NCBI GenBank assembly: GCA_038740895.1 | Contig: JAVYLK010000001.1 | Coordinates: forward strand, 105,490 to 169,489 | Reading direction: 5' to 3' | DNA: 64,000 nucleotides | Origin: Candidatus Caldarchaeum sp. | GTDB lineage: Archaea > Thermoproteota > Nitrososphaeria_A > Caldarchaeales > Caldarchaeaceae | Position numbers and translations under genes: made by a program | The notes under the pieces: model-generated | Database searches by the model: none | What the model was told of the DNA's origin: nothing | Seen by the model: the letters and a program-made list of their open reading frames with translations, nothing else | Shown: piece by piece, positions 26,671 through 45,584 of the stretch | Numbering within the stretch: the first letter of the stretch is position 1 | Layout: every line of letters begins with the position of its first letter

Positions 26671-27753
26671 TTAATGCACCAGACCGGCTCTGAGGAAGTG
26701 GTCGGCCAGTACAAAGGCAACCACCGCCTCCACTATCGGAACAGCTCGGGGTACCACGCACGGGTCATGCCGGCCTGGAACCACCAAGCTCGTCTCGCTC
26801 ATCGTCGAGAGGTCGACGGTTTTTTGCTGACGAGCTATTGAGGAGGCGGGCTTGAACCCAACCCTAACCAGCAGCGGCATCCCAGTGGTAAGCCCTCCGA
26901 GAACTCCTCCAGCGTTGTTCGTTGCAGTCCTCACTCTTCCCCCCTCGATTATGAAAGGGTCGTTGTTCTCCGACCCAGTGAGCCTAGAGCTCTCGAACCC
27001 ACGGCCGAACTCAACGGCCTTAACTGCGGGAATCGAGAAAAGTGCTCTGCTGAGGTCGGAGTCTATTGAGCTGAATACAGGCTCGCCCAGCCCTACCGGT
27101 AGGTTGAGGGCCATGCACTCTACGATTCCTCCTACGCTGTCTCCCCTATGCCTGCTCTCCAGTATGGCTCTCCTCATCCTCTCAGCCGTTTCGGGGTCGG
27201 GGCATCTCACCTCGTTGCTGTACCGACCAGCCCTAACCTGCTCCACTGTCAACGGCGGGCACTTGATGCCGGCGATCTCATGCGAGTAGGCTAGAACCTC
27301 AACCCCGTACCGTTGCAGGAGCTTCTTCGCAACCGCCCCAGCCATCACAAAGCCGGCGGTGATCCTGGCCGAGAACCTCCCTCCTCCCCTGTAGTCGTTA
27401 AACCCTTTGTACTTAACCCTCGCAGGATAGTCCGCATGACCTGGCCTGGGTTTGTTCAGTATCTGCTGGTAAGGCTTAGAGTCGACGTCCTTGTTCCATA
27501 CGACCATCAAGATGGGTGCTCCCGTCGTGTACCCCTCGTAAACTCCTGAGAGTATCTCAACCCGATCCTCCTCAGCCCTCGTTGTAGTGACTATTGACTG
27601 GCCTGGTTTTCTCCTGTCAAGCTCAACCTGGACCCCCTCCTCCGACACCTCTACTCCAGGCGGGCATCCGTCAATCAGCACACCCACGCATCTTCCATGG
27701 CTTTCGCCGAAGCTTATGACAACGAACCTCTCTCCGATTATGTTGCCCGTCAA
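26671..27753 (-). CDS. aroC: Chorismate synthase
   Basis: 360 aa. N-terminal GESHG, RPGHADY, GGGRFSARITAG motifs. Confidence 0.9.
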   Translation of the reverse strand: MTGNIIGERFVVISFGESHGRCVGVLIDGCPPGVEVSEEGVQVELDRRKPGQSIVTTTRAEEDRVEILSGVYEGYTTGAPILMVVWNKDVDSKPYQQILNKPRPGHADYPARVKYKGFNDYRGGGRFSARITAGFVMAGAVAKKLLQRYGVEVLAYSHEIAGIKCPPLTVEQVRAGRYSNEVRCPDPETAERMRRAILESRHRGDSVGGIVECMALNLPVGLGEPVFSSIDSDLSRALFSIPAVKAVEFGRGFESSRLTGSENNDPFIIEGGRVRTATNNAGGVLGGLTTGMPLLVRVGFKPASSIARQQKTVDLSTMSETSLVVPGRHDPCVVPRAVPIVEAVVAFVLADHFLRAGLVH

Positions 27754-30350
27754 CCCAGCTTCCTACGGGAGGGGGCATCTTTATGCTTTAACAGCTGCAG
27801 GCCGACGGAGAAGATTGCCGCTGCTAGAGAAGCCGCTGTATAAGGAGTCAAAGGCAGGACTACCTCCTGGACGCCTTCTTTCGGCATCAGGTTAAACCCG
27901 TAGCTGAGGAAATTCGACTCGATTACGGCTTGCTCAGCGTATTCAGTGAGCTGGCTGAAGTAGGCCAGGCCTCTCTCGTCTGTTCGGGCGACTTCCTCAA
28001 CACCCATGCTGTTCCTGACCACAACCTTCGTGCTTACGAACGGGATGCCTAGGAAGTCTCTGGCCTTGAGCACAAAGCTACCGACCTTGACGCTCAGCCG
28101 GAGCTGCCCAGGTTCTTCAACAACTATCCTTTCAACGTTTTTCACATCAAGGCCTTTGAACAAAACCGCCTCCACCTCGGCCTCACCTAATGGAAGCCAG
28201 TAGCTTGAACCAGCCGCAAGTACGAACTTCTCCCCCGATGAAGTTTTTAGGAAGACCGTTCCGTTCACATCCTTCCCGTCCCTAGAGACGAACAAGGGAG
28301 AAACCAAGGCTTCGGGTCGGTATACCGCCTTCAGATGCTTAGGGTTATCCACGTAAACTCTAGCAGTCGTGCCGTCGGCGCTGTCGACGTCTCCCAACCA
28401 TCCTACGAACACGCTCCTCTCACCGTTCCCCCGATAAACAACCTCCTCCGCTTCCACCACCAATTGTCTGCCGACGGCCCACCACAGCTCAGCAGACCCG
28501 TTCATCTTCTCCACCTTCACCAGAGCCTCGAGAACCCATTCGGCCTTGAACCTTACAGGCTCTCGCACAACCAACTCCACAGCCGGCTCGACTCCCAACC
28601 CAGCCCATCCGAGGAACCTGTACCTAAGCCCTTGACCAGCGTTCCTCAACACCGGCCCAGCGTCCAGCACTATGGGCCCGTTCTTGACAAACCACCCGCT
28701 TTCAACCATGACGGGCTGTGCCGACTCGATCTCCACGTAGTAGTAGACTCTGTAAACGGCTTTGGCTTGTACAGGGTTTCTGACGACGATAGTCGCTGAG
28801 GTGGTGTTCAGCTGGAGCCCTTGCCATTCTTGGAAAACAGCTTGTGTGTTGTTTTCCCAAGTGATTGTGGACGGGGCCGAGAGCTCAAAAACATCGCCCT
28901 CAGCATGCCATGCATCGTGGAGCAGAGCTTCCCCGTGGCTGCTTTTCGCCTGTACACGGAACTCCTTCTTCCAGCTGGCGACGACCGAAACGGGTCGGTC
29001 GACGTAAACCCTGTAAGTGTTTTCGTCGAGCTTCTCCATCGCCGGCCTCGAGTCTACTGAAGTAAGTGTCTGCCTCGCGTCGTCCCCAGTGTACACGTGC
29101 TTCTGTAAAATTCTCAGAACGACAAAACTGCCCTCTGGATACCATCCACCGCCCTCGATTACTTCAAACGGCGATACCACCGAGACGAGAAACTCTTTCA
29201 CATAAACTGCTTCAACGCTAAGAGGCCTGTTGACTACTACCTGCCTAATCCTGCTGGGTTCGCCGTCGCTCCATCCCTCGAACCTAAGCCTGACCCCCTC
29301 ATCCAGCAGGCTATACTCCAAGGCATCGAGCTGAATCGCACGGCCTCTCCTCACCCATTCATCATATACTCCGTCGAGACGTTTGACGGAAACTAGGTAG
29401 TAGACGCCGTATCTCGCTGTGAAATCCTGGGAGGAGTTCACGGTCTGCACTAGCTGGGCTTCTTCAGATATCTTGACGCCGTTTACATGCCAGCCTTCGA
29501 AGCGGAAAAGCGTGCCGTTGCCATGATTTATCAGTGGCGGGACGCTGTACCTAAAAGACTGTCCGTACGCCAGCTGGGTCGAGTTCAGGAACACCCTGCC
29601 TAGCTCAGACTCCATTAGCACACGAACGGTCAAGACTTCCGGTACAGGTGTAAGGTATTTGTAGGCCAACCCTTCAGGAAGCGAAACAGTCGACTGTCTG
29701 GGGCTGCTGAAGGATGTCTGGGAGACCCATGAGTAAGCCACGGCTAGTGCGTAGACGTTGAGGGTTGAGGGAAACTCGGCTGAGTTCAAATGAGTATACA
29801 TCAAATCTTGACTGTACGTTGAGTGGTCTAGGCCGAGGGCGTGCCCGTATTCGTGGGCCGCTACCTTGTACGCTGTCGAGGGGTTGTTGCCCACGCATGC
29901 CTTCGATATTTGTATGGAGGCTCTCAGGATTGCGCGTGTTGCGCTGTTAAACCTCAGCGACGCAACTCCGCACACGTTGTTCCCAAGCGACTCGACGTAG
30001 GATAGACCGACGTCGGCATCTGACTCCCTCAGAACATAACTGTATCTCAGCGTAAGGAGGTAAGAGTATCCGTACTCGCCGACGAAGGCCCTTATGCTGC
30101 CGTACCAGACCTCGACCCCTCTCCTGGCAGCCGAATCTAAAACCTCCGAGCCAGACGGCTGGATGTAAACGTTAAGACTGGTCTTGGACCATGCCCCTAT
30201 GAGGTCTATCTGCCTGCTGCTTGCTTGGAGCGGTGTGAAGGCTTCAGGCGATAAGGCTTGGATGGTTAATTCATACTCTGCAGGAGCCAGCGGTAGGAAA
30301 ACAGCTGCTATAAAGACGGTCAGAAAAATGCTGGCGGAGGCCCTTGTCAA
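27750..30350 (-). CDS. Secreted/surface-anchored zinc metalloprotease, metzincin (matrixin/M10-like) catalytic domain plus a large C-terminal beta-rich region and C-terminal TM anchor
   Basis: 866 aa. N-terminal signal peptide (FLTVFIAAVFLPLAPA). HEYGHALGLDHS (HExxHxxGxxH) followed by a Met-turn LMY. C-terminal hydrophobic helix then RRKLG. Confidence 0.65.
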   Translation of the reverse strand: MTRASASIFLTVFIAAVFLPLAPAEYELTIQALSPEAFTPLQASSRQIDLIGAWSKTSLNVYIQPSGSEVLDSAARRGVEVWYGSIRAFVGEYGYSYLLTLRYSYVLRESDADVGLSYVESLGNNVCGVASLRFNSATRAILRASIQISKACVGNNPSTAYKVAAHEYGHALGLDHSTYSQDLMYTHLNSAEFPSTLNVYALAVAYSWVSQTSFSSPRQSTVSLPEGLAYKYLTPVPEVLTVRVLMESELGRVFLNSTQLAYGQSFRYSVPPLINHGNGTLFRFEGWHVNGVKISEEAQLVQTVNSSQDFTARYGVYYLVSVKRLDGVYDEWVRRGRAIQLDALEYSLLDEGVRLRFEGWSDGEPSRIRQVVVNRPLSVEAVYVKEFLVSVVSPFEVIEGGGWYPEGSFVVLRILQKHVYTGDDARQTLTSVDSRPAMEKLDENTYRVYVDRPVSVVASWKKEFRVQAKSSHGEALLHDAWHAEGDVFELSAPSTITWENNTQAVFQEWQGLQLNTTSATIVVRNPVQAKAVYRVYYYVEIESAQPVMVESGWFVKNGPIVLDAGPVLRNAGQGLRYRFLGWAGLGVEPAVELVVREPVRFKAEWVLEALVKVEKMNGSAELWWAVGRQLVVEAEEVVYRGNGERSVFVGWLGDVDSADGTTARVYVDNPKHLKAVYRPEALVSPLFVSRDGKDVNGTVFLKTSSGEKFVLAAGSSYWLPLGEAEVEAVLFKGLDVKNVERIVVEEPGQLRLSVKVGSFVLKARDFLGIPFVSTKVVVRNSMGVEEVARTDERGLAYFSQLTEYAEQAVIESNFLSYGFNLMPKEGVQEVVLPLTPYTAASLAAAIFSVGLQLLKHKDAPSRRKLG

Positions 30351-36585: not shown

Positions 36586-37131
36586 ATGAACCATCTACTC
36601 AACTTAGCTTCCGCCGCCCTAGCAAGCTTCGCAATAATGATCCTTCTCTCAACTCTTGAGTTCACAGCCGAGCAACCCGCCCAGCCAGTTGTAGCGGCTG
36701 TGGTCCTGGCAGCCGTAGCAGCCGGCTTCGCTGGACGCTCGCCGGTCAGGGCCGCTGTGGGTGTCTTGATTGGCGGGGTGGCGGCTTTTACGCTTGCGTC
36801 TCTCTGGGGCGTTAAGCTCTGGTCTCCCTCGCCCGTACCGTCTGACCTCCCAGTCATAAGGATGATGCTCATAGGTGGTACCGCCCTTCTGGCCGCCGGA
36901 GTCGGTCTAGTGGCCTCGGAGATTCTTTCAAAACCCAAGCCGTCTGGTTTGAAAGAGGAGACGCCGAAGCCGGCGAAGCAGCCTGTCGTCGAGCTCGAGG
37001 TCGTCAAGAAAGAGGTTCGAGAGGCCGTGCCCGAGCCGGGAAACAGAGTTTGCAAGTTCTGCGAAAACGTAATTCCAGCAGAGTCGGTCTTCTGCCCCAT
37101 GTGCGGGGCTAAACTGGTCGAAGCAGAGTGA
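36586..37131 (+). CDS. Membrane protein with C-terminal zinc ribbon, hypothetical
   Basis: 181 aa. Three to four TM helices, then CKFCEN...CPMCGAKL. The stop overlaps the Lhr start (ATGA), suggesting co-transcription. Confidence 0.45.
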   Translation: MNHLLNLASAALASFAIMILLSTLEFTAEQPAQPVVAAVVLAAVAAGFAGRSPVRAAVGVLIGGVAAFTLASLWGVKLWSPSPVPSDLPVIRMMLIGGTALLAAGVGLVASEILSKPKPSGLKEETPKPAKQPVVELEVVKKEVREAVPEPGNRVCKFCENVIPAESVFCPMCGAKLVEAE

Positions 37132-39980
37132 TGCAAGACGGAGAATCTTTATCGGTGCTAAGCCTACTGGTTAAACCGCTTCAGGAAGCCATTCTAGAGA
37201 GGTTCAGCGAGCTTACCGAGCCTCAGGTCCAGAGCATTCCAAGGATACTCGAGGGTGAGAACCTTCTGCTGATGGCTCCCACGGGTACCGGTAAAACTGA
37301 GGCGGCGATCATACCCCTGCTGAACAGGCTTATGAGCCAGCCGGGAGGAGAAGGCGTTAGGATACTTTACATCACGCCGTTGAGAGCCTTGAACCGAGAC
37401 CTTCTAGAAAGGATAGAATGGTGGGCTGCGAGGTTGGACATGACTGTAGGAGTGAGGCACGGCGACACGCTTCAGCGAGAGAGAAGAATCCAGACGCTAA
37501 TGCCTCCAACCATTCTTATCACGACGCCCGAAACCCTCCAGATACTCCTCACCGCCCGCACTTTCCGACGACATCTAAAACACGTAGAGGCAGTCGTTGT
37601 GGACGAGGTTCACGAGCTTGCCGGAGACAAAAGGGGTGCGCAGCTATCGGTTGCGTTGGAGAGGCTTGTCGAGATTACCGGAAGAGACTTTCAGAGAATC
37701 GGTCTCTCGGCCACTGTAGGCAGCCCTGAGAAGGTTGCTTCTTTCCTCGTCGGTGTCGGAAGACGATGCAGCGTCGTGAGGGTTCCAGTTGTCAGGCACC
37801 TAAAAATCACCGTCGAGTATCCTGACCCGTCTCCAGAGGATTTCCGGCTGGCTGAGATGTTGTCCATCTACCCGGACGTGGCGGCTAGAATGAGCCTCAT
37901 CAAATCACTAGTCGACAGCCACGAGTCGACTCTTGTGTTCACCAACACACGCCCCTTGGCCGAGGTTCTGACAAACAGGTTTAGGGCCTGGGACGAAACA
38001 GCCCCTATAGGTATTCATCACGGAAGCCTGTCGAAATCGACTCGAGTCGGTGCTGAGCAGGCTCTCAAGACTGGAGGTCTTTCAGGTGTTGTTTGCACGT
38101 CCTCGCTCGAGATGGGCATAGATGTTGGCAGGATTGAACTCTGCATACAGTACAATTCACCCCGTGAAGTCTCCCGGCTCGTCCAGAGGGTTGGACGCAG
38201 CGGCCACACAATAAAGCGGACGGCGAAAGGCGTGATAATTGTTGCTGATTCGGATGATGCTTTGGAGAGTCTGGTGATCGCTAGGAGAGCGCAAGGGGAC
38301 GAGTTGGAGCCGACCGAGATCTTCGAAAACTCCTACGACGTGCTGGCCCACCAGATAGCGGGGATTGTGATAGAACGAGGTGAAATAAAGGTTGAAAACC
38401 TCGTCAACATCCTAAGGCGTTCCTACTGCTACAGAAACATAAACACAGAGCAGGTCGTCAAGAATGCGCAGCATCTGGAGAAACTCGGAGCTGTCCTGAT
38501 AACTACCGACAACGTCATTACCCTAGGAGTCAAGCGGACAGTCCTGTACGACTACTACTTCAGCAACCTATCCATGATACCGGAGGAAAAACAGTACCTT
38601 GTGGTTAACGAGTCGACAGGCGAAGCCGTGGGAATACTGGACGAAGAATTCGTGGCAGAGCACGGAGATCCTGGGACTAGGTTCATACTCATGGGCAAAG
38701 CTTGGGAGATAATTCAAACCTCCAACGCGAGGATCTATGTCGCACCTCTGGAAAGCCTCGAGGGAGCTGTTCCTTCATGGGTTGGCGACGAGATACCGGT
38801 CCCGTACCAGGTTGCTGAAGAGGTTGGAAGAATCAGGCGGGTTTATGCGGAGGCATTACAGGCGGATAGAGCCGACATGGTTTTGTCCGAGCTTTCCCAA
38901 GCCTACAGAACAAACACGTCGTTGCTGAAAAAATCCCTTAGAGAGGTTGAGCAGCACCTCCGCCTTGGAATTCCAGTCCCTTCGGACAAGACTTTCGTAT
39001 TAGAGGAGACCCCAGAGTACGTGGTTTTCCACATAACGGGCGGGCTGAAGGCTAACAGGACGCTTTCAAGAGTTCTGGCTCATCGTCTTGCCTCGAGGAC
39101 GGGGGCAGTAGTTGCGGTTCAGCAGGACGCCTACAGGATTGTCTTCAAGTCAAAAGAGATAGATGCAGACATGGTTGAGGATGAGTTGAAGAACCTGCTT
39201 GGCGCCGACTGGAGGGACACCGTCGCCAGGGCAGTCGAGTCGTCGAGCCTTTTCAGGAGAAGGCTCGTGCACGCTGCTCGTAAAATGGGAGTGCTCAGCA
39301 AGGAGGCCAGCATACTCGACGTCAGCGCTGTCAAGCTCGCTGAGATGCTTAAGGATACTGTTGTCTACGAGGAGGCGCTCAACCACAGCCTTGTCGCAGA
39401 CTTCGACTCGTCAACAGCCCTGACCCTGGTCAATAGAATCGTCCAGGGGAATACGGGCCTGATTAAAGTACGGGTTAAATCTCCGTCACCTCTGGCTGCG
39501 CTAACCTTAAACAGGTACAGCAGCGACGTAGACGTAGTGGCTTCCGACAGGCTTGAGAAGCTTGTGCTGAACGCTGTAAGGGGAAGGCTGAACAACGAAC
39601 CTGTCACCCTGGTGTGTGTTTCTTGCTGGAATTGGTACAGGCGGTGCTTCGTCAAAGAGCTTGAACCACGGCCCGTCTGCGGGTCTTGCCAGTCTACAAG
39701 CCTCGGAGTTTTGACCGTCGAGCCGGAGGAGGTGATGAACCTTCTAGCCAGGCGTGGAAAACCTTCCAACAGGAAGGAACGTGGCTACCGGTCTCAAGCC
39801 GTTAAGACTGCGATGTTGGTGGAAAGGTATGGGAAGGCAGCTGTCTTCACGCTCGCCAGCAAGTACCTCTCAGCCCAAGACGCCTCCGAAGTACTTGCGC
39901 AGGAGTCAGGCTTGGGGTCCAAGCTTGTCGAACTCATCGTCGAGAGGGAGCGTAAAAAGATTCAAGAAATGTTCAGGTAG
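37128..39980 (+). CDS. lhr: Lhr-type large ATP-dependent DEAD/DEAH-box helicase
   Basis: 950 aa. Q-motif/Walker A (QVQSIP...MAPTGTGKTEAA), DEVH box, a HRxGR-like motif (QRVGRSGH), and a C-terminal Lhr-specific region with a CxxC...CxxC cluster (CVSCWNW...CGSCQ). Confidence 0.8.
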   Translation: MMQDGESLSVLSLLVKPLQEAILERFSELTEPQVQSIPRILEGENLLLMAPTGTGKTEAAIIPLLNRLMSQPGGEGVRILYITPLRALNRDLLERIEWWAARLDMTVGVRHGDTLQRERRIQTLMPPTILITTPETLQILLTARTFRRHLKHVEAVVVDEVHELAGDKRGAQLSVALERLVEITGRDFQRIGLSATVGSPEKVASFLVGVGRRCSVVRVPVVRHLKITVEYPDPSPEDFRLAEMLSIYPDVAARMSLIKSLVDSHESTLVFTNTRPLAEVLTNRFRAWDETAPIGIHHGSLSKSTRVGAEQALKTGGLSGVVCTSSLEMGIDVGRIELCIQYNSPREVSRLVQRVGRSGHTIKRTAKGVIIVADSDDALESLVIARRAQGDELEPTEIFENSYDVLAHQIAGIVIERGEIKVENLVNILRRSYCYRNINTEQVVKNAQHLEKLGAVLITTDNVITLGVKRTVLYDYYFSNLSMIPEEKQYLVVNESTGEAVGILDEEFVAEHGDPGTRFILMGKAWEIIQTSNARIYVAPLESLEGAVPSWVGDEIPVPYQVAEEVGRIRRVYAEALQADRADMVLSELSQAYRTNTSLLKKSLREVEQHLRLGIPVPSDKTFVLEETPEYVVFHITGGLKANRTLSRVLAHRLASRTGAVVAVQQDAYRIVFKSKEIDADMVEDELKNLLGADWRDTVARAVESSSLFRRRLVHAARKMGVLSKEASILDVSAVKLAEMLKDTVVYEEALNHSLVADFDSSTALTLVNRIVQGNTGLIKVRVKSPSPLAALTLNRYSSDVDVVASDRLEKLVLNAVRGRLNNEPVTLVCVSCWNWYRRCFVKELEPRPVCGSCQSTSLGVLTVEPEEVMNLLARRGKPSNRKERGYRSQAVKTAMLVERYGKAAVFTLASKYLSAQDASEVLAQESGLGSKLVELIVERERKKIQEMFR

Positions 39981-40572
39981 GGTTCTCTTCTCCTTGTCCT
40001 TGTGAGAGGCTCGAGACAGCCTTTATCAACTCCTTCTGGTCGACCTCAGCCAACGCTCTCCATCCTACTGCGAGCATGCCGTCGCCGATGTCATGCAGGT
40101 ATCCACGTCTAACAAACCTCTCAAGTGCGGCCTCGACACGCCACTTCGGAAGCTTTGACTCAAGTAAATCGATCAATTCTTTCTTCGGGGCCCTCCCACC
40201 GCGAGAAAACAGAACAGCTAGAGAAGTCGACAACACAGCCAGGTCGTCTATCCTCCAGCCTGCAGCAACTATGTCCGATAGGCTGAGCGGGTCAGCCAAA
40301 GTGATGAAGTACCGGGCCCGGTCGTAGTCCTCCTCCGACGGCTCTTTGTCGGAAGGTGTTTCGAACAGCGTCTTCACTCTCAAGCCGAGCGGCTCGAGCC
40401 TGTGGTTAAGGCTCTCCAGCACCTTCAGGTAGTTCTTGCCGATTCTTCTGCGCAGCTCGTACCCCCTAACTCCGGGAAGCCTGTGGCTCGTGAACAGAAG
40501 CATCGCCATGGCCGTCGAAATCTTCTTCCTGGCAGCCGTCTGCTCGGGAGAGCCCTCAGTCAAGCACACCAC
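39973..40572 (-). CDS. ScpB-like (kite) protein with tandem winged-helix domains
   Basis: 199 aa. Two wHTH-like repeats: AMAMLLFTSHRLPGVRGYELRRRIG... and LSTSLAVLFSRGGRAPKKELIDLL...RVEAALERFVRRGYLHDIGDG. These align to the ScpB pattern (AYRQPITRAEIEEIRGV...ALIKEVGR). Overlaps the upstream kleisin-like gene by 17 nt. Confidence 0.5.
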   Translation of the reverse strand: MVCLTEGSPEQTAARKKISTAMAMLLFTSHRLPGVRGYELRRRIGKNYLKVLESLNHRLEPLGLRVKTLFETPSDKEPSEEDYDRARYFITLADPLSLSDIVAAGWRIDDLAVLSTSLAVLFSRGGRAPKKELIDLLESKLPKWRVEAALERFVRRGYLHDIGDGMLAVGWRALAEVDQKELIKAVSSLSQGQGEENPT

Positions 40573-41374
40573 CCTTCTTCAGCACGACAACCAACGAGGC
40601 CACGTTCCTTCTCTCAACCTTATTCTCCAAAGGCCTTAAAGTTATCTGACCAGTCAACGGGTTCCTCGACGCCTCCGCAAGCCCTTCGCTAAGCAGGAAG
40701 GCTGTCAAGTAAGCCCTTTCAAAGACCTTTTCAACCCCCTCCTCCAAGACGAAAGCCTTGTAGTCTAGAACGCCTTCCTCGTTCCTCCGCTCGAGCATTT
40801 CCCGGTGGAGACGCATCATTTCGCTCTCCAGCAAGCTTCTCTCGCTAAAAACCCATCCAACACCAGTATCGCCTAACCCGGAGCCCGTGTCCGAGCTCGC
40901 AGGTTTCCAAGAAGCTCTGGACGGAAGGCTCATAAAGTACTCGAGGCCCGAAACCGCCATCCCAAGCGTGAGTTGCTCTGCAGTAACTATGGGCCTCCAG
41001 CTAATCGCCAAAGCCTGAGCCAGGGACTTTTTGTCAGCTTCAAGAACTTTGAGGGCGACTGTTTGGGCGTCGACGAACAGGGATGAGGCTCTGTCCTTGA
41101 GCCATTTGTGCTGGAGGGCTATGACCGTCGCTATTCTGTAGATCGTCTCCGCGTCGAGGACCAGCAGCTCCGTGTTTTCGAATTTTTCAGCGATGGCCCG
41201 GAGCCTCGTCAGCATGTTCTTGACGTCCACCGAGTAAGGATCTGTTCCCGTCTGAACCACCGAGTCGCACAGCGAAATAAGCTTCTCCAACTCCTCCCTA
41301 GCTAGTCTCAAGCTTTTCACTGGGCACCGCCTCCGCAACAGACACCGTAGACCTGCCCCTAACGTTCTGGACAA
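40556..41374 (-). CDS. Kleisin (ScpA)-like protein
   Basis: 272 aa. C-terminal FERAYLTAFLLSEGLAEASRNPLTGQITLRPL resembles the ScpA C-terminal winged helix. The N-terminal helical region has ScpA-like hydrophobic periodicity. The ORF-track start overlaps the SMC-like gene by 77 nt, so the true start is probably a later GTG/ATG. Confidence 0.45.
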   Translation of the reverse strand: MSRTLGAGLRCLLRRRCPVKSLRLAREELEKLISLCDSVVQTGTDPYSVDVKNMLTRLRAIAEKFENTELLVLDAETIYRIATVIALQHKWLKDRASSLFVDAQTVALKVLEADKKSLAQALAISWRPIVTAEQLTLGMAVSGLEYFMSLPSRASWKPASSDTGSGLGDTGVGWVFSERSLLESEMMRLHREMLERRNEEGVLDYKAFVLEEGVEKVFERAYLTAFLLSEGLAEASRNPLTGQITLRPLENKVERRNVASLVVVLKKGGVLD

Positions 41375-43043
41375 GTATTACGTTCATATCACCGCTGTAA
41401 GGAAGCCTGCCGGGAGTTATGATGATGTACTGGGCCTCGCCGTCCCTGCCAGCCGTTGCTGTGAGTATGTTGATTATTCTCTCCCTGTTAAGAGGGTCTA
41501 GATGAACGTCGAACTCGTCGACGGCCCTGAAGGGCGACTTGATATGTTTCTGAAGAGCCAGCAGAAAAGCCATCGTCGCAACGATCCTCTCGCCTCCGCT
41601 CTGCGTGTGAGCATTTAGAAGCGTTGGCTCAACCCCCCTGAACCCCACGTATATCTCAACAGAAGCCTTATCTATGTCGTTCAGGTACCTCAGCTCGATC
41701 TTACCCGTCCCGCCCACCAGCGATAGGATCCTCTGATACTCGGGCTCTACCGATTGTATCAGGTTTCGGAGGAAGCTGCGCCACTTCTCTTTCCTGAACT
41801 CGGTCTCCTCCAACGCCTTCCTAGCGTTCTCGCTCAATTGCCTAGCCTTCAGCTCAGCCTCTCGAAACTTCGCCTCCGCCAGCATGAACATTTCCTCAGC
41901 ATGAGGCACAGGCTTGCCCAAGGAAGCCAGCTGAAGCTCCAGCGCTTTAAGATCATCCAAAACCTCGACAGGCTTCCGCACGGTCTCTATCTTCTGCCCT
42001 TTTGAGGAAGCCTCAGCAAACCTTCTCGCCAACTCTTTCTCAGCGGCCGCTAGCTCGTACTTGATGTCCTTCAACTCCGTCTCACGTATCTCCTTGAATG
42101 CTTCAGCCCTTCCCAGCTTCTCAGCGGCCTTGATGACTGCGTCAACGTTCTCCTCGAGGCTCGAACCTGTGTTCTCGGTCCTTACTATGTTCAGCAACCG
42201 TTGACGGGCTGTCTCAGTCTCCTGAGCCGCGTCAGAAACATCTCTACCAAGCTTCTCAACCTCCCTGCCGACCGCCATCAGTCTTTCAACAAGCCTGTCC
42301 CTCGACTTCTCCGCCTCTCTTACCAAGGACCAGAGATGCTCGGCCTCTAGCAAAGCTTTACGCTCTTCTAACTCACGGATCAACGTAAGCTTCTTGTACT
42401 CTTCCTTCCAAAAATCAACAGCAGCCCCAGCATCCTCGAGCGTCTTCCTCAACACAGCCTCCTCTGCAAGAAGAGCCGTGAGCTTCTGTTCAGCCTCCTT
42501 TATCCTCTCCCTCAAGCCTGAAGCCCCGACAGCCTCCTCTATCATGGCCAGCTTCTCGACGCTGTCCCTGCTGACGAACTGCTCGATCATGTTTTGATGC
42601 ATTATTATCAGGATGTTGTCAGGGTTTATTCCGACTCTGGCTAGAAGGTTCTCTACTTCAGCCTTTGTCCTGAACTTGTTGTTTACGTAGTGCCAGTACT
42701 CTCCGCTTTTCTTCAAAAACCTAGCTATCGACACAGAGTCGGACTGGATGGAAGGCAACGGCCTCCGACCGTCGACAGGCTTGTTGTCTAGGACCACGAC
42801 TACACGTGCTGCGTCCATTCCTCTCCTTATCAAGTCGCTCAGCCGTTGTCCCCGCTCCGTGTAGGACTGGCCAAGGGCTACGGATATGGCTAGAAGAATG
42901 GATGATTTTCCGGCTCCGTTAGGGCCTACTATGACGTTGAGGCCGTTGGTCAGCTGGATGCGGCTATACTCATGGGACATGAAGTTCTCTAGGATAACCT
43001 CCTTGATGTAGGGCCTTGGCAGGTTGTCCTGGTTGGTAGTCAA
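41298..43043 (-). CDS. Miniature SMC/Rad50-family ABC ATPase (581 aa, short coiled coil, no hinge or zinc hook detected)
   Basis: N-terminal head IKEVILENFMSHEYSRIQLTNGLNVIVGPNGAGKSSILLAISVALG (Walker A). About 270 aa of heptad-rich coiled coil. C-terminal head with signature/D-loop QSGGERIVATMAFLLALQ...FRAVDEFDVHLD and H-loop-like QYIIITPG. No CxxC hook. Confidence 0.7.
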   Translation of the reverse strand: MTTNQDNLPRPYIKEVILENFMSHEYSRIQLTNGLNVIVGPNGAGKSSILLAISVALGQSYTERGQRLSDLIRRGMDAARVVVVLDNKPVDGRRPLPSIQSDSVSIARFLKKSGEYWHYVNNKFRTKAEVENLLARVGINPDNILIIMHQNMIEQFVSRDSVEKLAMIEEAVGASGLRERIKEAEQKLTALLAEEAVLRKTLEDAGAAVDFWKEEYKKLTLIRELEERKALLEAEHLWSLVREAEKSRDRLVERLMAVGREVEKLGRDVSDAAQETETARQRLLNIVRTENTGSSLEENVDAVIKAAEKLGRAEAFKEIRETELKDIKYELAAAEKELARRFAEASSKGQKIETVRKPVEVLDDLKALELQLASLGKPVPHAEEMFMLAEAKFREAELKARQLSENARKALEETEFRKEKWRSFLRNLIQSVEPEYQRILSLVGGTGKIELRYLNDIDKASVEIYVGFRGVEPTLLNAHTQSGGERIVATMAFLLALQKHIKSPFRAVDEFDVHLDPLNRERIINILTATAGRDGEAQYIIITPGRLPYSGDMNVILVQNVRGRSTVSVAEAVPSEKLETS

Positions 43044-43183
43044 TCCTTCAGGCCGGCCTACGACGGAGGATAATATAAATTACCATCAACTCTCAAATCA
43101 TACGTATGTATGTCATGGACAATTATGCCTGCCGCCGAACCCGCTAACATATATAGACACGTTCCAGGCTTCCCCGTTCGAGC

Positions 43184-44314
43184 ATGTCGCAGGAGCTGGA
43201 GAGAATCGCAGCGATCAGAGCCCGTGAAGCGGTGAACTACGACAGGTCCGGCCAGAGGCTTAAAGCAGTCAAGCTGTACAGGGAGGCGATCGAGTTGTTG
43301 TGGAAGCTTTACCGGCTAGCTCCCGACTCGTCGGTCAAAAGGATCTACGCCGACAAAATTAAAGAGTATCAGGCTAGGATAGAGGAACTGTCCAACGAAT
43401 CCCCTCCACCGTTCAAGGAGGTTCAGTTCAACCAAGCCGAGCTGTCCAACTCCAAACCCAGCCTCACCCTGACCGAGAAGCCAAAGGTCCGGTGGGACGA
43501 CATAGTCAACATAGAGGAGGCGAAGAGAGCTATCAAGGAGAGCATAATATTCCCGACCAGAAGACCAGACCTTTTCCCGCTTGGCTGGCCGAGGGGGATT
43601 CTGCTTTTCGGCCCGCCAGGCTGCGGCAAGACTCTCCTAGCAGCTGCGGTTGCGTCTGAGCTAGATGCAGGGTTTCACTCTCTGGACGCCGCCAGCATTA
43701 TGTCCAAGTGGCTGGGGGAGTCGGAGCGGAACATCTCCAAGTTGTTCAACACCTGCAGGCATGAAGCTAAATCAGGCAAGCCTGTCATTATCTTCATCGA
43801 CGAGGTTGACTCTTTAACCACGGAGAGGTTCATGGAAGTGGGTGGTGAGGCGAGGGTCAGGAACCAGCTGCTGAAGGAAATGGACAGCATCCTAGACAAG
43901 GGTAGGAAAGACTTTCTGTACGTAATCGCAGCGACCAACAAGCCTTGGCTGCTGGATGAGCCCTTCATCAGAAGGTTCCAGAAAAGGATCTACGTCTCGC
44001 TGCCCGACATCGACGCAAGGCTGCATCTGTTTAGAATGTACACTAACGGCCTTAACCTAGACAGCGGCGTTGAACTCGCTCAGCTGGCAAAAATAACTGA
44101 CGGCTACTCGGCGGCAGACATTCACGACATATGCGTAGAGGCGCAGCTACGTGTCGTCAGCGAATACTTCTCCTCTTCTGACGGCGATGAGGGAGAGCCC
44201 AGACCTATTACGATGGATGACTTCATGGAGATCATCAAGAAGAGAAAGCACTCGATCGTTCTGGAGAATTTGAAGAAGCTGCTGGACTGGAACTCAAAGT
44301 ACGGAACTAGCTAG
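43184..44314 (+). CDS. cdvC: CdvC / Vps4-like AAA+ ATPase with N-terminal MIT domain
   Basis: 376 aa. MIT-like three-helix N-terminus (AIRAREAVNYDRSGQRLKAVKLYREAIELLWKL). AAA core ILLFGPPGCGKTLLA, Walker B IIFIDEVD, SRH, and a Vps4 C-terminal helix. Confidence 0.85.
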   Translation: MSQELERIAAIRAREAVNYDRSGQRLKAVKLYREAIELLWKLYRLAPDSSVKRIYADKIKEYQARIEELSNESPPPFKEVQFNQAELSNSKPSLTLTEKPKVRWDDIVNIEEAKRAIKESIIFPTRRPDLFPLGWPRGILLFGPPGCGKTLLAAAVASELDAGFHSLDAASIMSKWLGESERNISKLFNTCRHEAKSGKPVIIFIDEVDSLTTERFMEVGGEARVRNQLLKEMDSILDKGRKDFLYVIAATNKPWLLDEPFIRRFQKRIYVSLPDIDARLHLFRMYTNGLNLDSGVELAQLAKITDGYSAADIHDICVEAQLRVVSEYFSSSDGDEGEPRPITMDDFMEIIKKRKHSIVLENLKKLLDWNSKYGTS

Positions 44315-45083
44315 CTTCTGCGACCTCCAGCTGTATCAAACCCTTATCGTGCAGGTTTTTCAAAACTTCTGAAGCTGTCTGAGGGTCTATCTTCAGCTCA
44401 GCTGCGAGAACGTGAAGGTCGAGCTCCTCATCCTCCCTACCCACGACGTAGCTGTAAACAGTCTTCTCCAAGTCTGTAAGCCTAGGGGCCTCGGGGAACG
44501 ATTGACGCACCTTCTCAGCAGCTATCCTCCTAGCTTCGTCGAGGATGAACGAAACTTCCTGAGAGACGTTCGTGTTGCTGTCAGACACGGGCTCTACGTA
44601 GACGCCCGAGCTGGTCATGAAGTCCTCGATCAACACCATTAGGTTCCTCAAGTGTTCAGACGCCTCGGGTGAGACGTCAGCTATCTCGGCCAGAGTGTTC
44701 TGAAGCATGGCCGACAGAGGCCTGATGAGGGACAGGGCCTCGCCCAGTTCAAGGATGCTTTCAAGCCTAATCTTGACCTGCAGCAGTACGAGCTGGCTGT
44801 GAAGAACTATTCCAGCCAGTTTTTTAACCTCAGCAATCTCCGAGGCGTAGATCTTGGCCTTCTCATCATCCTTTGACTGGATAGCGTCAACGCATTTCTC
44901 GAAGTATTCACGGCTCCTTGCCAGCATCTCTCTATACTTGTTGTTGAGCCTCTCGATGTGCCCGTTAAGAGAGGATATTGACTTTTCAATTCTTGCAGCC
45001 ATCTCCTCATGAAGGTCCATCTGGGGAGGTTCCTCCGCCTGTTGTTCGGGCCAGTCGTTCCTACGCTTCAGAAACCCAATCAA
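44307..45083 (-). CDS. cdvB: CdvB / ESCRT-III (Snf7-family) protein with C-terminal winged-helix domain
   Basis: 258 aa. N-terminal ~170 aa helical hairpin-rich, Snf7-like. C-terminal LTDLEKTVYSYVVGREDEELDLHVLAAELKIDPQTASEVLKNLHDKGLIQLE forms a winged helix as in crenarchaeal CdvB. Divergent from cdvC. Confidence 0.7.
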   Translation of the reverse strand: MIGFLKRRNDWPEQQAEEPPQMDLHEEMAARIEKSISSLNGHIERLNNKYREMLARSREYFEKCVDAIQSKDDEKAKIYASEIAEVKKLAGIVLHSQLVLLQVKIRLESILELGEALSLIRPLSAMLQNTLAEIADVSPEASEHLRNLMVLIEDFMTSSGVYVEPVSDSNTNVSQEVSFILDEARRIAAEKVRQSFPEAPRLTDLEKTVYSYVVGREDEELDLHVLAAELKIDPQTASEVLKNLHDKGLIQLEVAEAS

Positions 45084-45170: not shown

Positions 45171-45584
45171 TCAGGAGCATCTGGACAAGAAGATGTCTTC
45201 CCTCTCGTATTCGGCCATCCACGTTCTTGTTGAGCTGGGCTTGAGCCTCAGGCCGACAAGCATGTAGCCCTCCGGAGTATCGGCTATGGAAGAGGCAAGC
45301 GCCTGCTCGATAGAGTCTGCGACTCGTTCCTTCACAACACGCTTCTCGCCGCTTTCCCTCTCGGCACGATAGCACACTAAGCACAGCGTTTTTCCGCGGA
45401 GCACAGTAGAAGTAAACCTTCTTACTGAGGAGCCGCACTTGTCGCAGACAATCATATGGAGGCCGCATTTTCGGCAGACAGCTCCGTAGCCAGCGACGTA
45501 GTGGAATGTTTCGCCCGGCTTTGACTCTGCTCCGCACGACTTGCATACGGTTTTTTCACCGGTTTTCTGGATGTGGCCGAGCAT
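45171..45584 (-). CDS. Double zinc-ribbon protein, hypothetical
   Basis: 137 aa with four CxxC pairs (CKSCG, CRKCG, CDKCG, CLVC). Co-oriented and immediately upstream of cdvB. Preferred over an overlapping Arg-rich 139-aa ORF in another frame. Confidence 0.35.
   Translation of the reverse strand: MLGHIQKTGEKTVCKSCGAESKPGETFHYVAGYGAVCRKCGLHMIVCDKCGSSVRRFTSTVLRGKTLCLVCYRAERESGEKRVVKERVADSIEQALASSIADTPEGYMLVGLRLKPSSTRTWMAEYEREDIFLSRCS

What the first reader, a model, noticed from the sequence alone, without database searches (positions are those of the whole stretch)
39973..43043. Compact SMC-like / kleisin-like / kite-like three-gene operon with a miniature (581 aa) SMC-family ATPase
Three co-directional, overlapping genes on the minus strand encode: (i) an SMC/Rad50-superfamily ABC ATPase with complete head motifs (Walker A GPNGAGKS; signature QSGGER; D-loop/Walker B AVDEFDVHLD) but only ~270 aa of coiled coil, with no recognisable hinge or zinc hook; (ii) a 272-aa protein whose C-terminus resembles the ScpA/kleisin winged helix; (iii) a 199-aa protein with two tandem winged helices arranged like ScpB (kite). 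Canonical archaeal SMC is about 1150-1200 aa, so a half-length SMC-like protein with its own kleisin and kite partners is not the textbook condensin. The architecture is reminiscent of condensin-like defence or segregation modules (Wadjet/MksBEF-like, Lamassu LmuB-like). No nuclease or other effector gene is attached, which argues against a complete defence island. The cluster is flanked by an Lhr helicase on one side and cdvC/cdvB on the other. It could be a minimal chromosome-organisation machine, a ClsN/arcadin-4-like segregation factor with previously unrecognised partners, or a new SMC-family system.
Basis: partly seen in the sequence, partly recalled or inferred. Interest (0 to 1): 0.75.

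Follow-up and report, generated by a model that had tools for sequence, protein, structure and literature searches.

The report
Hingeless archaeal SMC5/6-like three-gene operon
This Caldarchaeum operon encodes the archaeal relative of the eukaryotic SMC5/6 DNA-repair complex (ATPase, Nse4-like kleisin, Nse1/3-like kite), a kind already catalogued, whose arm is naturally one third of normal length with no hinge and whose operon usually sits next to an Lhr repair helicase.

Summary
Three overlapping minus-strand genes encode a 581-aa SMC-type ATPase, a kleisin (254 aa from its real GTG start) and a roughly 196-aa kite.

All three proteins point to SMC5/6:
- The ATPase's best solved-structure sequence matches are eukaryotic Smc5 and Smc6.
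- The kleisin's best profile and fold matches are Nse4.
- Members of the kite family hit the Pfam MAGE/Nse3 and Nse1 models.

The operon is orthologous to a published example of an archaeal "SMC5/6-related" gene cluster (van Hooff et al. preprint, archaeon HR02). It is therefore a new member of a known kind.

Three points appear in none of the papers I could search:
- The short arm is real and conserved. It is a coiled coil of about 17 nm ending in a variable 5-residue hairpin, with no hinge and no zinc hook. Most clusters of the family are 548-685 aa. Rarer long relatives carry a hinge-like domain or a CxxC hook.
- A convergent Lhr helicase gene abuts or lies near the operon in 42 of 59 informative loci from two archaeal classes.
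- The published table missed the kleisin in Caldarchaeum.

The most likely function is an ATP-driven DNA clamp for repair or replication stress. It is not a defence system, and the gene is not a pseudogene.

The parts
41298..43043 (-). Short-armed, hingeless SMC5/6-related ATPase, 581 aa, TTG start
   Evidence: Family matches: Pfam SMC_N 9.7e-35. Best PDB sequence hits are Smc5 and Smc6 at 2e-33, against archaeal Smc at 3e-25. AF2 model, pLDDT 84.6: heads plus a 114-residue helix, a 5-residue apex turn and a broken return helix. Best Foldseek hit is the engineered P. yayanosii Smc 'head + coiled coil + joint' construct 5xei. ATPase motifs are invariant across the family.
40556..41320 (-). Nse4-like kleisin, 254 aa from GTG 41320 (the longest ORF starts at 41374)
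   Evidence: All homologues are about 254 aa. Best profile-vs-PDB hit is yeast Nse4, E 0.0036. The AF2 model shows an N-terminal helical domain with a 45-residue helix, a disordered linker and a C-terminal winged helix. Best Foldseek hit is Nse4 in the Smc5/6 holocomplex 7qcd_F, E 8.5e-5, followed by Rad21, Scc1-C and ScpA-C. A GGAGG lies upstream of the GTG.
39973..40563 (-). Nse1/Nse3(MAGE)-like kite, about 196 aa from TTG 40563 (the longest ORF starts at GTG 40572)
   Evidence: The window protein gives a faint Pfam SMC_Nse1 hit, E 0.057. Of 34 family members, 8 hit SMC_Nse1 and 7 hit MAGE, and none hits ScpB. P0195 passes the MAGE gathering score, 26.2 against 25 bits, over the second winged helix. 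UniRef names the homologue P0191 'MAGE domain-containing'. The gene follows the kleisin in 70 of 80 loci. No structure model was made.
43044..43183 (.). 140-bp divergent intergenic region between the ATPase and cdvC, with TATA-like boxes for both genes
   Evidence: Read directly. ATTTATATTA lies about 30 nt upstream of the ATPase TTG, and TATATA-type sequence lies on the cdvC side. This is inference by eye and was not tested.
37128..39980 (+). Lhr-type SF2 helicase, 950 aa, convergent, its 3' end overlapping the kite gene by 8 nt. It is the only conserved neighbour of the operon
   Evidence: Pfam DEAD, Helicase_C, WH_Lhr and DEAD_assoc. Of 59 related loci with at least 3 kb beyond the kite gene, a convergent Lhr abuts in 26. 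In 16 more it lies within about 3.3 kb. These loci come from Caldarchaeales and Methanomethylicia. Lhr is also 2.3 kb downstream in the locus of the hinge-bearing relative, L082.

Best explanation
The three genes form one operon. It encodes the archaeal SMC5/6-related complex in its short-armed form.

Inferred assembly, by analogy with solved Smc5/6 and Smc-ScpAB structures:
- Two copies of the 581-aa ATPase sandwich two ATP molecules between their heads.
- One Nse4-like kleisin ties the pair together asymmetrically. Its N-terminal long helix packs on the conserved coiled-coil neck of one ATPase. Its C-terminal winged helix sits on the cap of the other.
- A homodimer of the Nse1/3-like kite sits on the kleisin's middle.
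- DNA is clamped on top of the engaged heads, inside the kleisin/kite compartment.

The arms are only about 17 nm long and end in a poorly conserved hairpin, with no hinge or hook. The complex therefore cannot close the large arm-and-hinge compartment that long-armed SMCs have. It probably acts as an ATP-gated DNA clamp or short-range translocase rather than a long-range loop extruder.

The conserved juxtaposition with an Lhr helicase and the kinship with Smc5/6 point to DNA repair or replication-stress handling. The operon is a vertically inherited chromosomal housekeeping gene set.

Shown: gene structure, family kinship, fold, arm anatomy, conservation and synteny. Inferred: stoichiometry, DNA clamping and the repair role.
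For: Identity of the proteins:
- ATPase: PDB sequence scores are Smc5/Smc6 117-119 bits, archaeal Smc 92, Smc3 69 and Rad50 36.
- In the 1.84-billion-protein library, the next tier after the archaeal family is made of 950-1180-aa proteins at about 1e-33. The one checked is fungal. These proteins share the QYxxITP motif with the archaeal family.
- Kleisin: the Nse4 results are.
- Kite: MAGE and Nse1 hits.

Orthology to a published cluster: locus L039 is BEHE01000017.1. Its genes _4, _3 and _2 are the published SMC5/6-related SMC, Nse4-related kleisin and Nse1/3-related kite.

Operon structure: overlapping genes with an internal GGAGG. The gene order is colinear in 70 of 80 loci.

Active enzyme: all ATPase motifs are invariant.

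Conservation along the protein, as mean frequency of the commonest residue: neck 0.67-0.70, heads 0.75-0.81, apex 0.39. The only indels fall at the apex. This fits a conserved kleisin-binding neck and a non-functional tip.

Shortness is a family trait. Most clusters are 548-685 aa.

Long-armed relatives carry the same kleisin and kite. For P0320 (982 aa, hinge-like middle domain) the HMM E-values are 5.6e-28 and 2.5e-31. For P0336 (928 aa) they are 8e-24 and 1.3e-14.

Lhr linkage: 42 of 59 informative loci.

Housekeeping context: GC content matches the surroundings, and the neighbours are core metabolic and translation genes.
Against: - No multimer prediction or experiment was possible. The 2:1:2 stoichiometry, the neck and cap contacts and the DNA clamping are all by analogy.
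- The kite has no structure model. A profile of the kite family found no Nse1, Nse3 or ScpB chain in the PDB. The Pfam hits cover only the second winged helix and mostly fall below the curated cut-off.
- Foldseek does not separate SMC subfamilies for the ATPase. The top hit is canonical archaeal Smc.
- Lhr is convergent, not co-transcribed, and is missing near the operon in the Wolframiiraptor/Geocrenenecus group. The functional link is therefore suggestive only.
- Without a hinge, it is unknown how, or whether, the two arms stay together.
- A role in chromosome organisation cannot be excluded. This applies especially if, as the published table suggests for C. subterraneum, no canonical SMC is present.
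Confidence: 0.8

Rival explanations
1. It is an anti-plasmid or anti-phage SMC module of the Wadjet/MksBEF or Lamassu type. It would sense foreign DNA and trigger a nuclease or abortive infection.
For: PADLOC models mad3 (4e-32) and LmuB (6e-26) match the ATPase. LmuB is also a short-armed SMC-like protein. Eukaryotic Smc5/6 restricts extrachromosomal DNA (established knowledge).
Against: - The PADLOC hits are generic SMC_N head similarity and are weaker than the SMC model hit (TIGR02169, 1.7e-53).
- The kleisin and kite have no PADLOC hit at all.
- There is no JetD or LmuA-type effector, integrase or other defence gene within the window.
- The locus is syntenic, with housekeeping neighbours, across the genus Caldarchaeum. 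The operon is present across whole archaeal orders, including two complete genomes.
- Base composition matches the surroundings.
Confidence: 0.04
2. It is the cell's condensin equivalent, a minimal chromosome-organisation and segregation machine functionally coupled to the neighbouring Cdv division genes.
For: cdvC and a cdvB-like gene lie directly upstream, with cdvC divergent. The published table records no canonical SMC for Caldarchaeum subterraneum, so this could be the only SMC-type complex there.
Against: - The Cdv adjacency is found only in the 11 Caldarchaeum loci and in none of the other lineages carrying the operon, apart from a weak, distant cdv match in L080.
- The related HR02 genome has a separate condensin-type SMC-kleisin-ScpB cluster as well as this operon.
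- Arms of 17 nm with no hinge are poorly suited to the large-loop capture attributed to condensins (inference).
- The conserved neighbour is a repair-type helicase.
Confidence: 0.12
3. It is a member of another SMC-superfamily branch (Rad50/SbcC, RecN, ClsN/ASRP or arcadin-4), and the two small genes are unrelated winged-helix proteins.
For: NCBIfam gives weak hits to Rad50 (2e-22), ASRP (1.8e-11), arcadin-4 (7.6e-9) and RecN (1.7e-6). The protein's length is similar to RecN and ASRP.
Against: - All these scores are far below the curated cut-offs: 79 bits against 1000, 43 against 300, 34 against 860, and 27 against 408.
- There is no zinc hook.
- No Mre11 gene is adjacent.
- The Smc5/6 and Smc hits are much stronger.
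- The middle gene matches Nse4 and other kleisins by profile and by fold.
Confidence: 0.02
4. It is a decayed or truncated canonical smc-scpA-scpB locus, that is, a pseudogene or assembly artefact.
For: The ATPase is half the normal SMC length.
Against: - Length is conserved across the family. The 120 closest homologues are almost all 551-636 aa, and most clusters of the wider family are 548-685 aa.
- The catalytic motifs are invariant.
- The model is confident and shows a clean hairpin apex.
- The same architecture occurs in 80 genomes, including complete ones.
- Pfam gave the kleisin no hit at all and the kite no ScpB hit.
Confidence: 0.01

Closest known systems
Archaeal 'SMC5/6-related' SMC-kleisin-kite operons (Yoshinaga & Inagaki 2021, PMC8665677; van Hooff, Raas, Tromer & Eme, bioRxiv 10.1101/2024.01.07.573240)
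   Same: The family is the same and the gene order is the same. The window operon is orthologous to the published HR02 example, BEHE01000017.1_4/_3/_2. The published table counts the Caldarchaeum ATPase and kite as SMC5/6-related and Nse1/3-related.
   Different: Nothing separates it as a kind. The differences lie in what has been described. The texts I could search do not mention the short arm, the missing hinge or the Lhr neighbour. The published table scores Nse4-related kleisin as 0 for Caldarchaeum subterraneum, whereas the kleisin is present here.
Eukaryotic Smc5/6-Nse1/3/4 core complex
   Same: - It gives the closest solved-structure sequence matches for the ATPase.
- The QYxxITP motif is shared.
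- Nse4 is the best profile and fold match for the kleisin.
- The kite shows MAGE/Nse1-type similarity.
- The complex probably uses the same DNA-clamp geometry on engaged heads (inference).
   Different: - There is one ATPase gene here, so a homodimer rather than an Smc5/Smc6 heterodimer.
- There is one kite rather than Nse1 plus Nse3, and at about 196 aa it has no room for a RING domain.
- No Nse2, Nse5 or Nse6 gene lies in the operon.
- The arm is about 17 nm rather than about 35-50 nm (the latter from general knowledge).
- There is no hinge.
Prokaryotic Smc-ScpAB condensin
   Same: It has the same three-part logic: an ATPase dimer, a kleisin and a kite dimer. The ATPase model superposes best on the P. 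yayanosii Smc head, coiled coil and joint construct 5xei. The kleisin's C-terminal winged helix matches ScpA-C with TMt 0.70.
   Different: - Sequence similarity to Smc is weaker than to Smc5/6.
- Pfam gave the kleisin no hit at all and the kite no ScpB hit.
- There is no hinge, and the protein is about half the length.
- A separate condensin-type cluster coexists with this operon in the related HR02 genome.
Short-armed SMC-like proteins without kleisin/kite partners (RecN; Lamassu LmuB)
   Same: Overall size is similar, about 550-600 aa, with short antiparallel coiled coils and no canonical hinge. PADLOC LmuB matches at 6e-26.
   Different: From general knowledge, those proteins do not pair with an Nse4-like kleisin and a tandem-winged-helix kite. 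The hits here are to the generic head only. RecN scores 27 bits against a cut-off of 408.

Membership tests
Archaeal SMC5/6-related complex (SMC5/6-related aSMC + Nse4-related kleisin + Nse1/3-related kite) | ATPase head closer to eukaryotic SMC5/6 than to canonical SMC | tested here: met
   PDB phmmer gives Smc5/Smc6 at 2e-33 (117-119 bits) and archaeal Smc at 3e-25 (92 bits). In the representative library, the tier after the archaeal family consists of 950-1180-aa proteins; the one checked is a fungal protein. I ran only a rough NJ tree. The ML phylogenies are published.
Archaeal SMC5/6-related complex (SMC5/6-related aSMC + Nse4-related kleisin + Nse1/3-related kite) | Orthology to a published member of the class | tested here: met
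   L039 is BEHE01000017.1 of archaeon HR02. Its ATPase is 53% identical to the window's. Its kleisin scores 4e-81 with the A1 HMM and its kite 1e-72 with the A2 HMM. These are genes _4, _3 and _2 in the 'Gene cluster examples' sheet.
Archaeal SMC5/6-related complex (SMC5/6-related aSMC + Nse4-related kleisin + Nse1/3-related kite) | Adjacent kleisin of the Nse4 type | tested here: met
   In the profile-vs-PDB search, Nse4 is the top hit at E 0.0036, ahead of ScpA at 0.68. By Foldseek, Nse4 7qcd_F is the top hit at E 8.5e-5 with probability 1.0. The domain layout is N-helical domain, linker, C-terminal winged helix.
Archaeal SMC5/6-related complex (SMC5/6-related aSMC + Nse4-related kleisin + Nse1/3-related kite) | Adjacent kite of the Nse1/Nse3 (MAGE) type: tandem winged helices | tested here: inconclusive
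   Of 34 family members, 7 hit Pfam MAGE (best 7.9e-6; one is above the cut-off) and 8 hit SMC_Nse1, and none hits ScpB. The hits cover the second winged helix only. The family profile finds no kite in the PDB. The orthologue in HR02 is classed as Nse1/3-related in the literature.
SMC proteins proper (Smc, SMC1-6, MukB) | Central hinge (dimerisation) domain at the end of a long (about 35-50 nm) arm | tested here: not met
   The AF2 model has a 5-residue turn at the apex of a 114-residue helix. There is no Pfam SMC_hinge hit. The apex is the least conserved region and the only site of indels.
SMC proteins proper (Smc, SMC1-6, MukB) | ABC-type head split between the N and C termini, with Walker A, Q-loop, signature and Walker B/D-loop motifs | tested here: met
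   Pfam SMC_N 9.7e-35 spanning residues 12-543. The motifs are invariant. Foldseek matches SMC heads at 1e-18 to 1e-23.
Eukaryotic Smc5/6 holocomplex | Smc5/Smc6 heterodimer, Nse1 RING, Nse2 SUMO ligase, Nse5/6 | tested here: not met
   The operon has one ATPase gene and one kite gene of about 196 aa. No further genes are conserved with it except Lhr. It is a relative of the holocomplex, not a member.
Smc-ScpAB condensin | ScpA (PF02616) kleisin and ScpB (PF04079) kite | tested here: not met
   At E up to 1, Pfam gave the kleisin no hit at all and the kite no ScpB hit. None of the 34 kite homologues hit ScpB. In the kleisin profile search, ScpA reaches only E 0.68, behind Nse4.
Wadjet (JetABCD) / Lamassu (LmuACB) | Dedicated nuclease or effector (JetD; LmuA) and defence-island context | tested here: not met
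   No effector lies in the operon or the window. The kleisin and kite have no PADLOC hit. The synteny is conserved and the neighbours are housekeeping genes.
Rad50/SbcC, ClsN/ASRP, arcadin-4 | CxxC zinc hook at the arm apex; curated family score | tested here: not met
   There is no Cys in the arm of the window protein and no CxxC hook in any of the 46 aligned sequences. NCBIfam gives Rad50 79 bits against 1000, ASRP 43 against 300, and arcadin-4 34 against 860.

The most novel reading that the evidence does not exclude
The archaeal SMC5/6-related lineage lost the hinge and the distal arm once. It has since operated as a natural 'mini-SMC': two heads with necks and joints, one Nse4-like kleisin and a kite dimer. 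On this reading the complex works with the conserved neighbouring Lhr helicase on damaged or stalled DNA, and in Caldarchaeum it may be the only SMC-type ATPase. If so, hinge and long arms are dispensable for the core function of a kleisin/kite SMC complex. It would also give a small thermostable model of the Smc5/6 core. A Bathyarchaeia subclade would then have re-lengthened the arm and acquired a Rad50-like CxxC hook.
Probability: 0.3. Interest if true: 0.75.

Novelty: new member of a known kind. Interest (0 to 1): 0.5.

Why it matters
The operon belongs to the archaeal sister group of eukaryotic SMC5/6, which bears on how the eukaryotic repair complex arose. That kinship is already published.

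What this analysis adds is that most members of the group, including this one, are natural hingeless complexes with 17-nm arms that still keep a kleisin and a kite. Current models of SMC action (DNA entrapment, segment capture, loop extrusion) give the hinge and long arms central roles. A conserved complex without them tests what the head-kleisin-kite core can do on its own. It is also small and thermostable, which suits structural work.

The recurrent pairing with an Lhr helicase suggests a concrete and testable repair partnership. It resembles the links between Smc5/6 and helicases such as Mph1/FANCM and Sgs1 in eukaryotes (this comparison is from general knowledge).

No experiment has been reported for any member of this archaeal group in the literature I could search.

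Tried and rejected
- **Defence system.** I scanned all three proteins against PADLOC. Only generic head hits came back, and nothing matched the kleisin or kite. The neighbourhood is housekeeping genes. Rejected.
- **ScpA/ScpB identity of the small proteins.** At E up to 1, Pfam gave the kleisin no hit at all and the kite no ScpB hit. Rejected in favour of Nse4-like and Nse1/3-like.
- **ClsN/ASRP, arcadin-4, Rad50, RecN, RecF.** All score far below the curated cut-offs. Rejected.
- **Functional link to cdvB/cdvC.** The adjacency is genus-specific. Rejected as a conserved association.
- **A second SMC, ScpA or ScpB in the window.** None was found among the ORFs of 150 aa or more that I scanned. 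The rest of the genome is not available.
- **Sequence-only PDB searches of the kleisin and kite.** These gave nothing. A kite family profile against the PDB also found no kite.
- **Confirming the hinge of the long relative P0320.** A PDB sequence search of its middle region gave no hinge hit. Pfam gave SMC_hinge as the best hit, but below the cut-off.
- **Literature.** Searches for a described short-armed or hingeless archaeal SMC5/6-like protein, or for an Lhr-SMC link, found none.

Full report
**1. What is in the sequence**

Three co-directional, overlapping minus-strand ORFs lie at 41298-43043 (581 aa), 40556-41374 (272 aa) and 39973-40572 (199 aa).

- Homologues show that the middle protein is 254 aa. 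Its real start is therefore GTG 41320, ten bases downstream of a GGAGG, and it overlaps the ATPase stop by 23 nt.
- The third protein is annotated as 196 aa in its closest relatives. It most likely starts at TTG 40563, inside TTGACTGA, which also contains the kleisin stop.
- The 140-bp region between the ATPase gene and the divergent cdvC gene carries TATA-like boxes. One of them, ATTTATATTA, lies about 30 nt upstream of the ATPase start (read by eye, not tested).
- GC content (0.53-0.55) matches the rest of the window.
- The nearest homologues (92-99% identity) come from Candidatus Caldarchaeum MAGs, in the Aigarchaeota / Nitrososphaeria_A.

**2. The ATPase**

It is an SMC-type ABC ATPase.
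- Pfam SMC_N matches at 9.7e-35 across residues 12-543.
- NCBIfam SMC_prok_A matches at 1.7e-53, on the head portions only.
- Walker A, Q-loop, signature, Walker B and D-loop residues are invariant in 46 family members that go down to 51% identity.

Sequence similarity points to SMC5/6.
- Among solved structures, the best sequence matches are yeast and human Smc5 and Smc6 (2e-33, 117-119 bits). They are followed by archaeal Smc (3e-25), Smc3, Smc1 and Rad50.
- In a search of 1.84 billion representative proteins, the family itself extends to about 1e-95. The next tier, at about 1e-33, consists of 950-1180-aa proteins. The one I checked is fungal.
- That tier shares with the archaeal family the motif Q-[YF]-x-x-I-T-P downstream of Walker B. 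From memory, canonical SMCs carry the H-loop His at that position. I did not test this here.

The AlphaFold2 model is confident (pLDDT 84.6).
- The N-head spans residues 13-172.
- A single 114-residue helix runs from 175 to 288, about 17 nm.
- A 5-residue turn (NTGSS) follows at 289-293.
- The return strand is broken twice (helices 294-348, 358-375 and 382-441), which looks like an SMC joint.
- The C-head spans 445-569.

Foldseek's best match over the whole chain is the engineered Pyrococcus yayanosii 'Smc head with coiled coil and joint' construct 5xei (E 5.7e-23, TM 0.59/0.66). Smc5/6, cohesin and condensin heads all match at about 1e-20. The natural protein therefore corresponds to head, neck and joint of a normal SMC, closed off by a hairpin.

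There is no hinge domain. There is no Cys in the arm of the window protein and no CxxC hook in any of the 46 aligned sequences. The apex (271-310) is the least conserved part, with a mean top-residue frequency of 0.39. The heads score 0.75-0.81 and the neck 0.67-0.70. The apex is also the only place where relatives carry insertions.

**3. The kleisin**

Single-sequence searches found nothing.
- A profile of 29 homologues finds yeast Nse4 as the best PDB hit (E 0.0036, over the C-terminal region). Human EID3/NSMCE4B follows at 0.29 and ScpA at 0.68.
- The AlphaFold2 model (pLDDT 66.8; the domains themselves score 70-90) has an N-terminal helical domain that includes a 45-residue helix. A disordered linker follows at 132-159, then a C-terminal winged helix.
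- Foldseek's best hit is Nse4 in the yeast Smc5/6 holocomplex (7qcd_F, E 8.5e-5, probability 1.0, 242 aligned columns). Next come Nse4 7tve_G, Rad21, Scc1-C (TMt 0.64) and ScpA-C (TMt 0.70).

It is a kleisin, closest to Nse4.

**4. The kite**

- The window protein gives only a faint Pfam SMC_Nse1 hit (E 0.057).
- Of 34 family members scanned, 8 hit SMC_Nse1 (best 8e-4) and 7 hit MAGE, the Nse3 family (best 7.9e-6). None hits ScpB.
- The MAGE matches cover the second winged helix (kite residues about 107-176 against profile positions 118-206 of 207). One member exceeds the curated cut-off.
- UniRef names one homologue 'MAGE domain-containing'.
- A family profile did not find any kite in the PDB.
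The two-winged-helix fold therefore rests on its size, its position, these partial hits and the literature.

**5. Conservation and neighbours**

A scan of one genome per GTDB species returned 80 loci. They come from Caldarchaeum, Pelearchaeum, Terraquivivens, Calditenuis, HR01/HR02, Wolframiiraptor, Geocrenenecus and Methanomethylicia. The set also includes one Hadarchaeales MAG and some Thermoprotei MAGs. Two Methanomethylicia loci are from complete Methanosuratincola chromosomes.

- HMMs built from the three alignments show the order ATPase, kleisin, kite in 70 of 80 loci. Most of the remainder are cut by contig ends. The ATPase ORFs that are not cut by a contig end are 572-629 aa.
- CdvC, CdvB and the SufBD gene are neighbours only in the 11 Caldarchaeum loci (apart from a weak, distant cdv match in L080).
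- The one neighbour that persists is the Lhr helicase (Pfam DEAD, Helicase_C, WH_Lhr and DEAD_assoc). Of 59 loci with at least 3 kb beyond the kite gene, a convergent Lhr abuts it in 26, often with overlapping 3' ends as in the window. In 16 more it lies within about 3.3 kb. These loci are in both Caldarchaeales and Methanomethylicia.
- Lhr is absent near the operon in the Wolframiiraptor/Geocrenenecus group.
- The other window ORFs I scanned are housekeeping genes. They include tRNA-intron endonuclease, triose-phosphate isomerase, a pst/PhoU phosphate transporter, chorismate synthase, GlmS and a NUDIX protein. There is no ScpA or ScpB, no second SMC, and no defence or mobile-element gene.

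**6. Arm variants within the family**

Most 50%-identity clusters of the family are 548-685 aa. Three kinds of longer relative exist.

- **P0320 (982 aa).** It has a globular middle domain whose best Pfam hit is SMC_hinge. The hit is below the cut-off (E 0.0043, 17.9 bits against 22.5) but covers profile positions 4-107 of 116. A PDB sequence search of the same region found no hinge. Its locus carries an orthologous kleisin (HMM 5.6e-28), a kite (2.5e-31) and an Lhr gene 2.3 kb downstream.
- **P0336 (928 aa).** It also has an orthologous kleisin and kite (8e-24 and 1.3e-14).
- **Bathyarchaeia forms of 1016-1047 aa.** They carry a conserved mid-arm C-[DE]-[KR]-C-G-S motif, which looks like a Rad50-type zinc hook. 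In the one locus examined, no kleisin or kite is adjacent.

I built a rough neighbour-joining tree of the head domains, without support values.
- P0336 and P0320 fall at the base.
- All short forms group in one clade.
- The hook-bearing forms are nested among the short ones.

This suggests a single hinge loss followed by a secondary re-lengthening with a hook. It needs a proper phylogeny.

**7. What is already known**

- Yoshinaga & Inagaki (2021) defined 'SMC5/6-related aSMC', with 80 sequences, 66 of them from TACK archaea. They used a 500-1500-aa length filter and removed the coiled coil before tree building.
- van Hooff et al. (bioRxiv 2024, version of 2025) showed that many TACK and Asgard archaea have a second operon encoding an SMC5/6-related SMC, an Nse4-related kleisin and an Nse1/3-related kite.
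- Their gene-cluster sheet lists BEHE01000017.1_4/_3/_2 of archaeon HR02 as such a cluster. That is my locus L039, whose ATPase is 53% identical to the window's and whose gene _1 is Lhr. The window operon is thus an orthologue of a published example.
- HR02 also has a separate condensin-type SMC-kleisin-ScpB cluster.
- For Caldarchaeum subterraneum, their table records the following:
  - an SMC5/6-related SMC;
  - an Nse1/3-related kite;
  - no Nse4-related kleisin;
  - an adjacent pair of an unclassified archaeal (condensin-type) kleisin and a ScpB-like kite;
  - no canonical SMC.
  The kleisin found here fills the gap in that row.
- None of the three papers' texts mentions a short arm or missing hinge in this group.
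- Library searches found no description of a hingeless archaeal SMC5/6-like complex or of an Lhr link. The library does not cover most subscription journals, so this absence is provisional.

**8. Most likely mechanism**

Shown:
- an intact, conserved ABC ATPase of the SMC5/6 lineage;
- a kleisin with both SMC-binding modules;
- a kite-sized partner with MAGE/Nse1 similarity;
- tight operon coupling;
- a conserved neck and a non-conserved apex.

Inferred by analogy with solved Smc5/6 and Smc-ScpAB structures:
- Two ATPases engage their heads around two ATP molecules.
- The kleisin bridges the neck of one and the cap of the other.
- A kite homodimer binds the kleisin.
- DNA is clamped on the heads, inside the kleisin compartment.

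With 17-nm arms and no hinge or hook, the arm compartment is either open or held only by arm-arm packing. I therefore favour an ATP-gated clamp or short-range translocase over a long-range loop extruder. The SMC5/6 kinship and the recurrent Lhr neighbour point to repair or replication-stress work. This last step is the weakest, because Lhr is convergent rather than co-transcribed and is not universal.

**9. Verdict**

- This is a new member of a known, purely bioinformatically described kind.
- The hingeless short arm, the apex variants, the Lhr association and the overlooked Caldarchaeum kleisin are additions worth recording. They give the locus moderate interest.

Noticed in passing
Outside the window: proteins P0293, P0295, P0315 and P0333 (Bathyarchaeia; locus L081): Long members (1016-1047 aa) of the same SMC5/6-related family carry a conserved mid-arm C-[DE]-[KR]-C-G-S motif where a hinge would be. 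It looks like a Rad50-type zinc hook. In a rough NJ tree they nest inside the short-armed clade. In L081 no kleisin or kite gene is adjacent.
   Followed up: partly
Outside the window: L082 (P0320, 982 aa) and L083 (P0336, 928 aa): These are long-armed relatives at the base of the rough tree. P0320 has a hinge-like middle domain (Pfam SMC_hinge, E 0.0043, below the cut-off). Both keep an orthologous kleisin and kite. L082 also has Lhr 2.3 kb downstream. This suggests that the hinge was lost within the family.
   Followed up: partly
window 37128-39980 (+) and 36586-37131 (+): The Lhr helicase gene overlaps by 4 nt with an upstream 181-aa ORF. That ORF ends in a zinc ribbon and its N-terminal half looks hydrophobic by eye. 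The small ORF is also found next to Lhr in Caldarchaeum, Pelearchaeum and HR01 loci (L001-L015), so the two may be co-transcribed partners. Lhr itself ends in a Cys-rich segment that looks like a zinc ribbon (CVSC...CGSC).
   Followed up: partly
window 45171-45584 (-): A 137-aa ORF next to the cdvB-like gene has several CxxC pairs and no Pfam hit. It is conserved at the same position in the Caldarchaeum loci that extend that far (E 1e-55 to 1e-87). Its function is unknown.
   Followed up: no
window 43184-45083: A Vps4/CdvC gene (MIT + AAA) is convergent with a 258-aa gene, and the two overlap by 8 nt at their 3' ends. Pfam detects only the C-terminal winged helix (MarR/TrmB-like) of the 258-aa protein, with no Snf7 hit. 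It may be a divergent CdvB/ESCRT-III. Its adjacency to the SMC operon is specific to the genus Caldarchaeum.
   Followed up: partly
Literature table (van Hooff et al., Supplementary Table 3), Caldarchaeum subterraneum_A row: The published survey records an adjacent pair of an unclassified archaeal (condensin-type) kleisin and a ScpB-like kite for this genus, but no canonical SMC. If that is correct, either the kleisin-kite pair is orphaned or it works with the short SMC5/6-like ATPase. I could not check this because only 64 kb of the genome is available.
   Followed up: no
window 27750-30350 (-): An 866-aa ORF whose only Pfam matches are a short zinc-metallopeptidase motif region (Matrixin/Reprolysin-like, residues about 106-189). 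The rest of the protein is unannotated.
   Followed up: no
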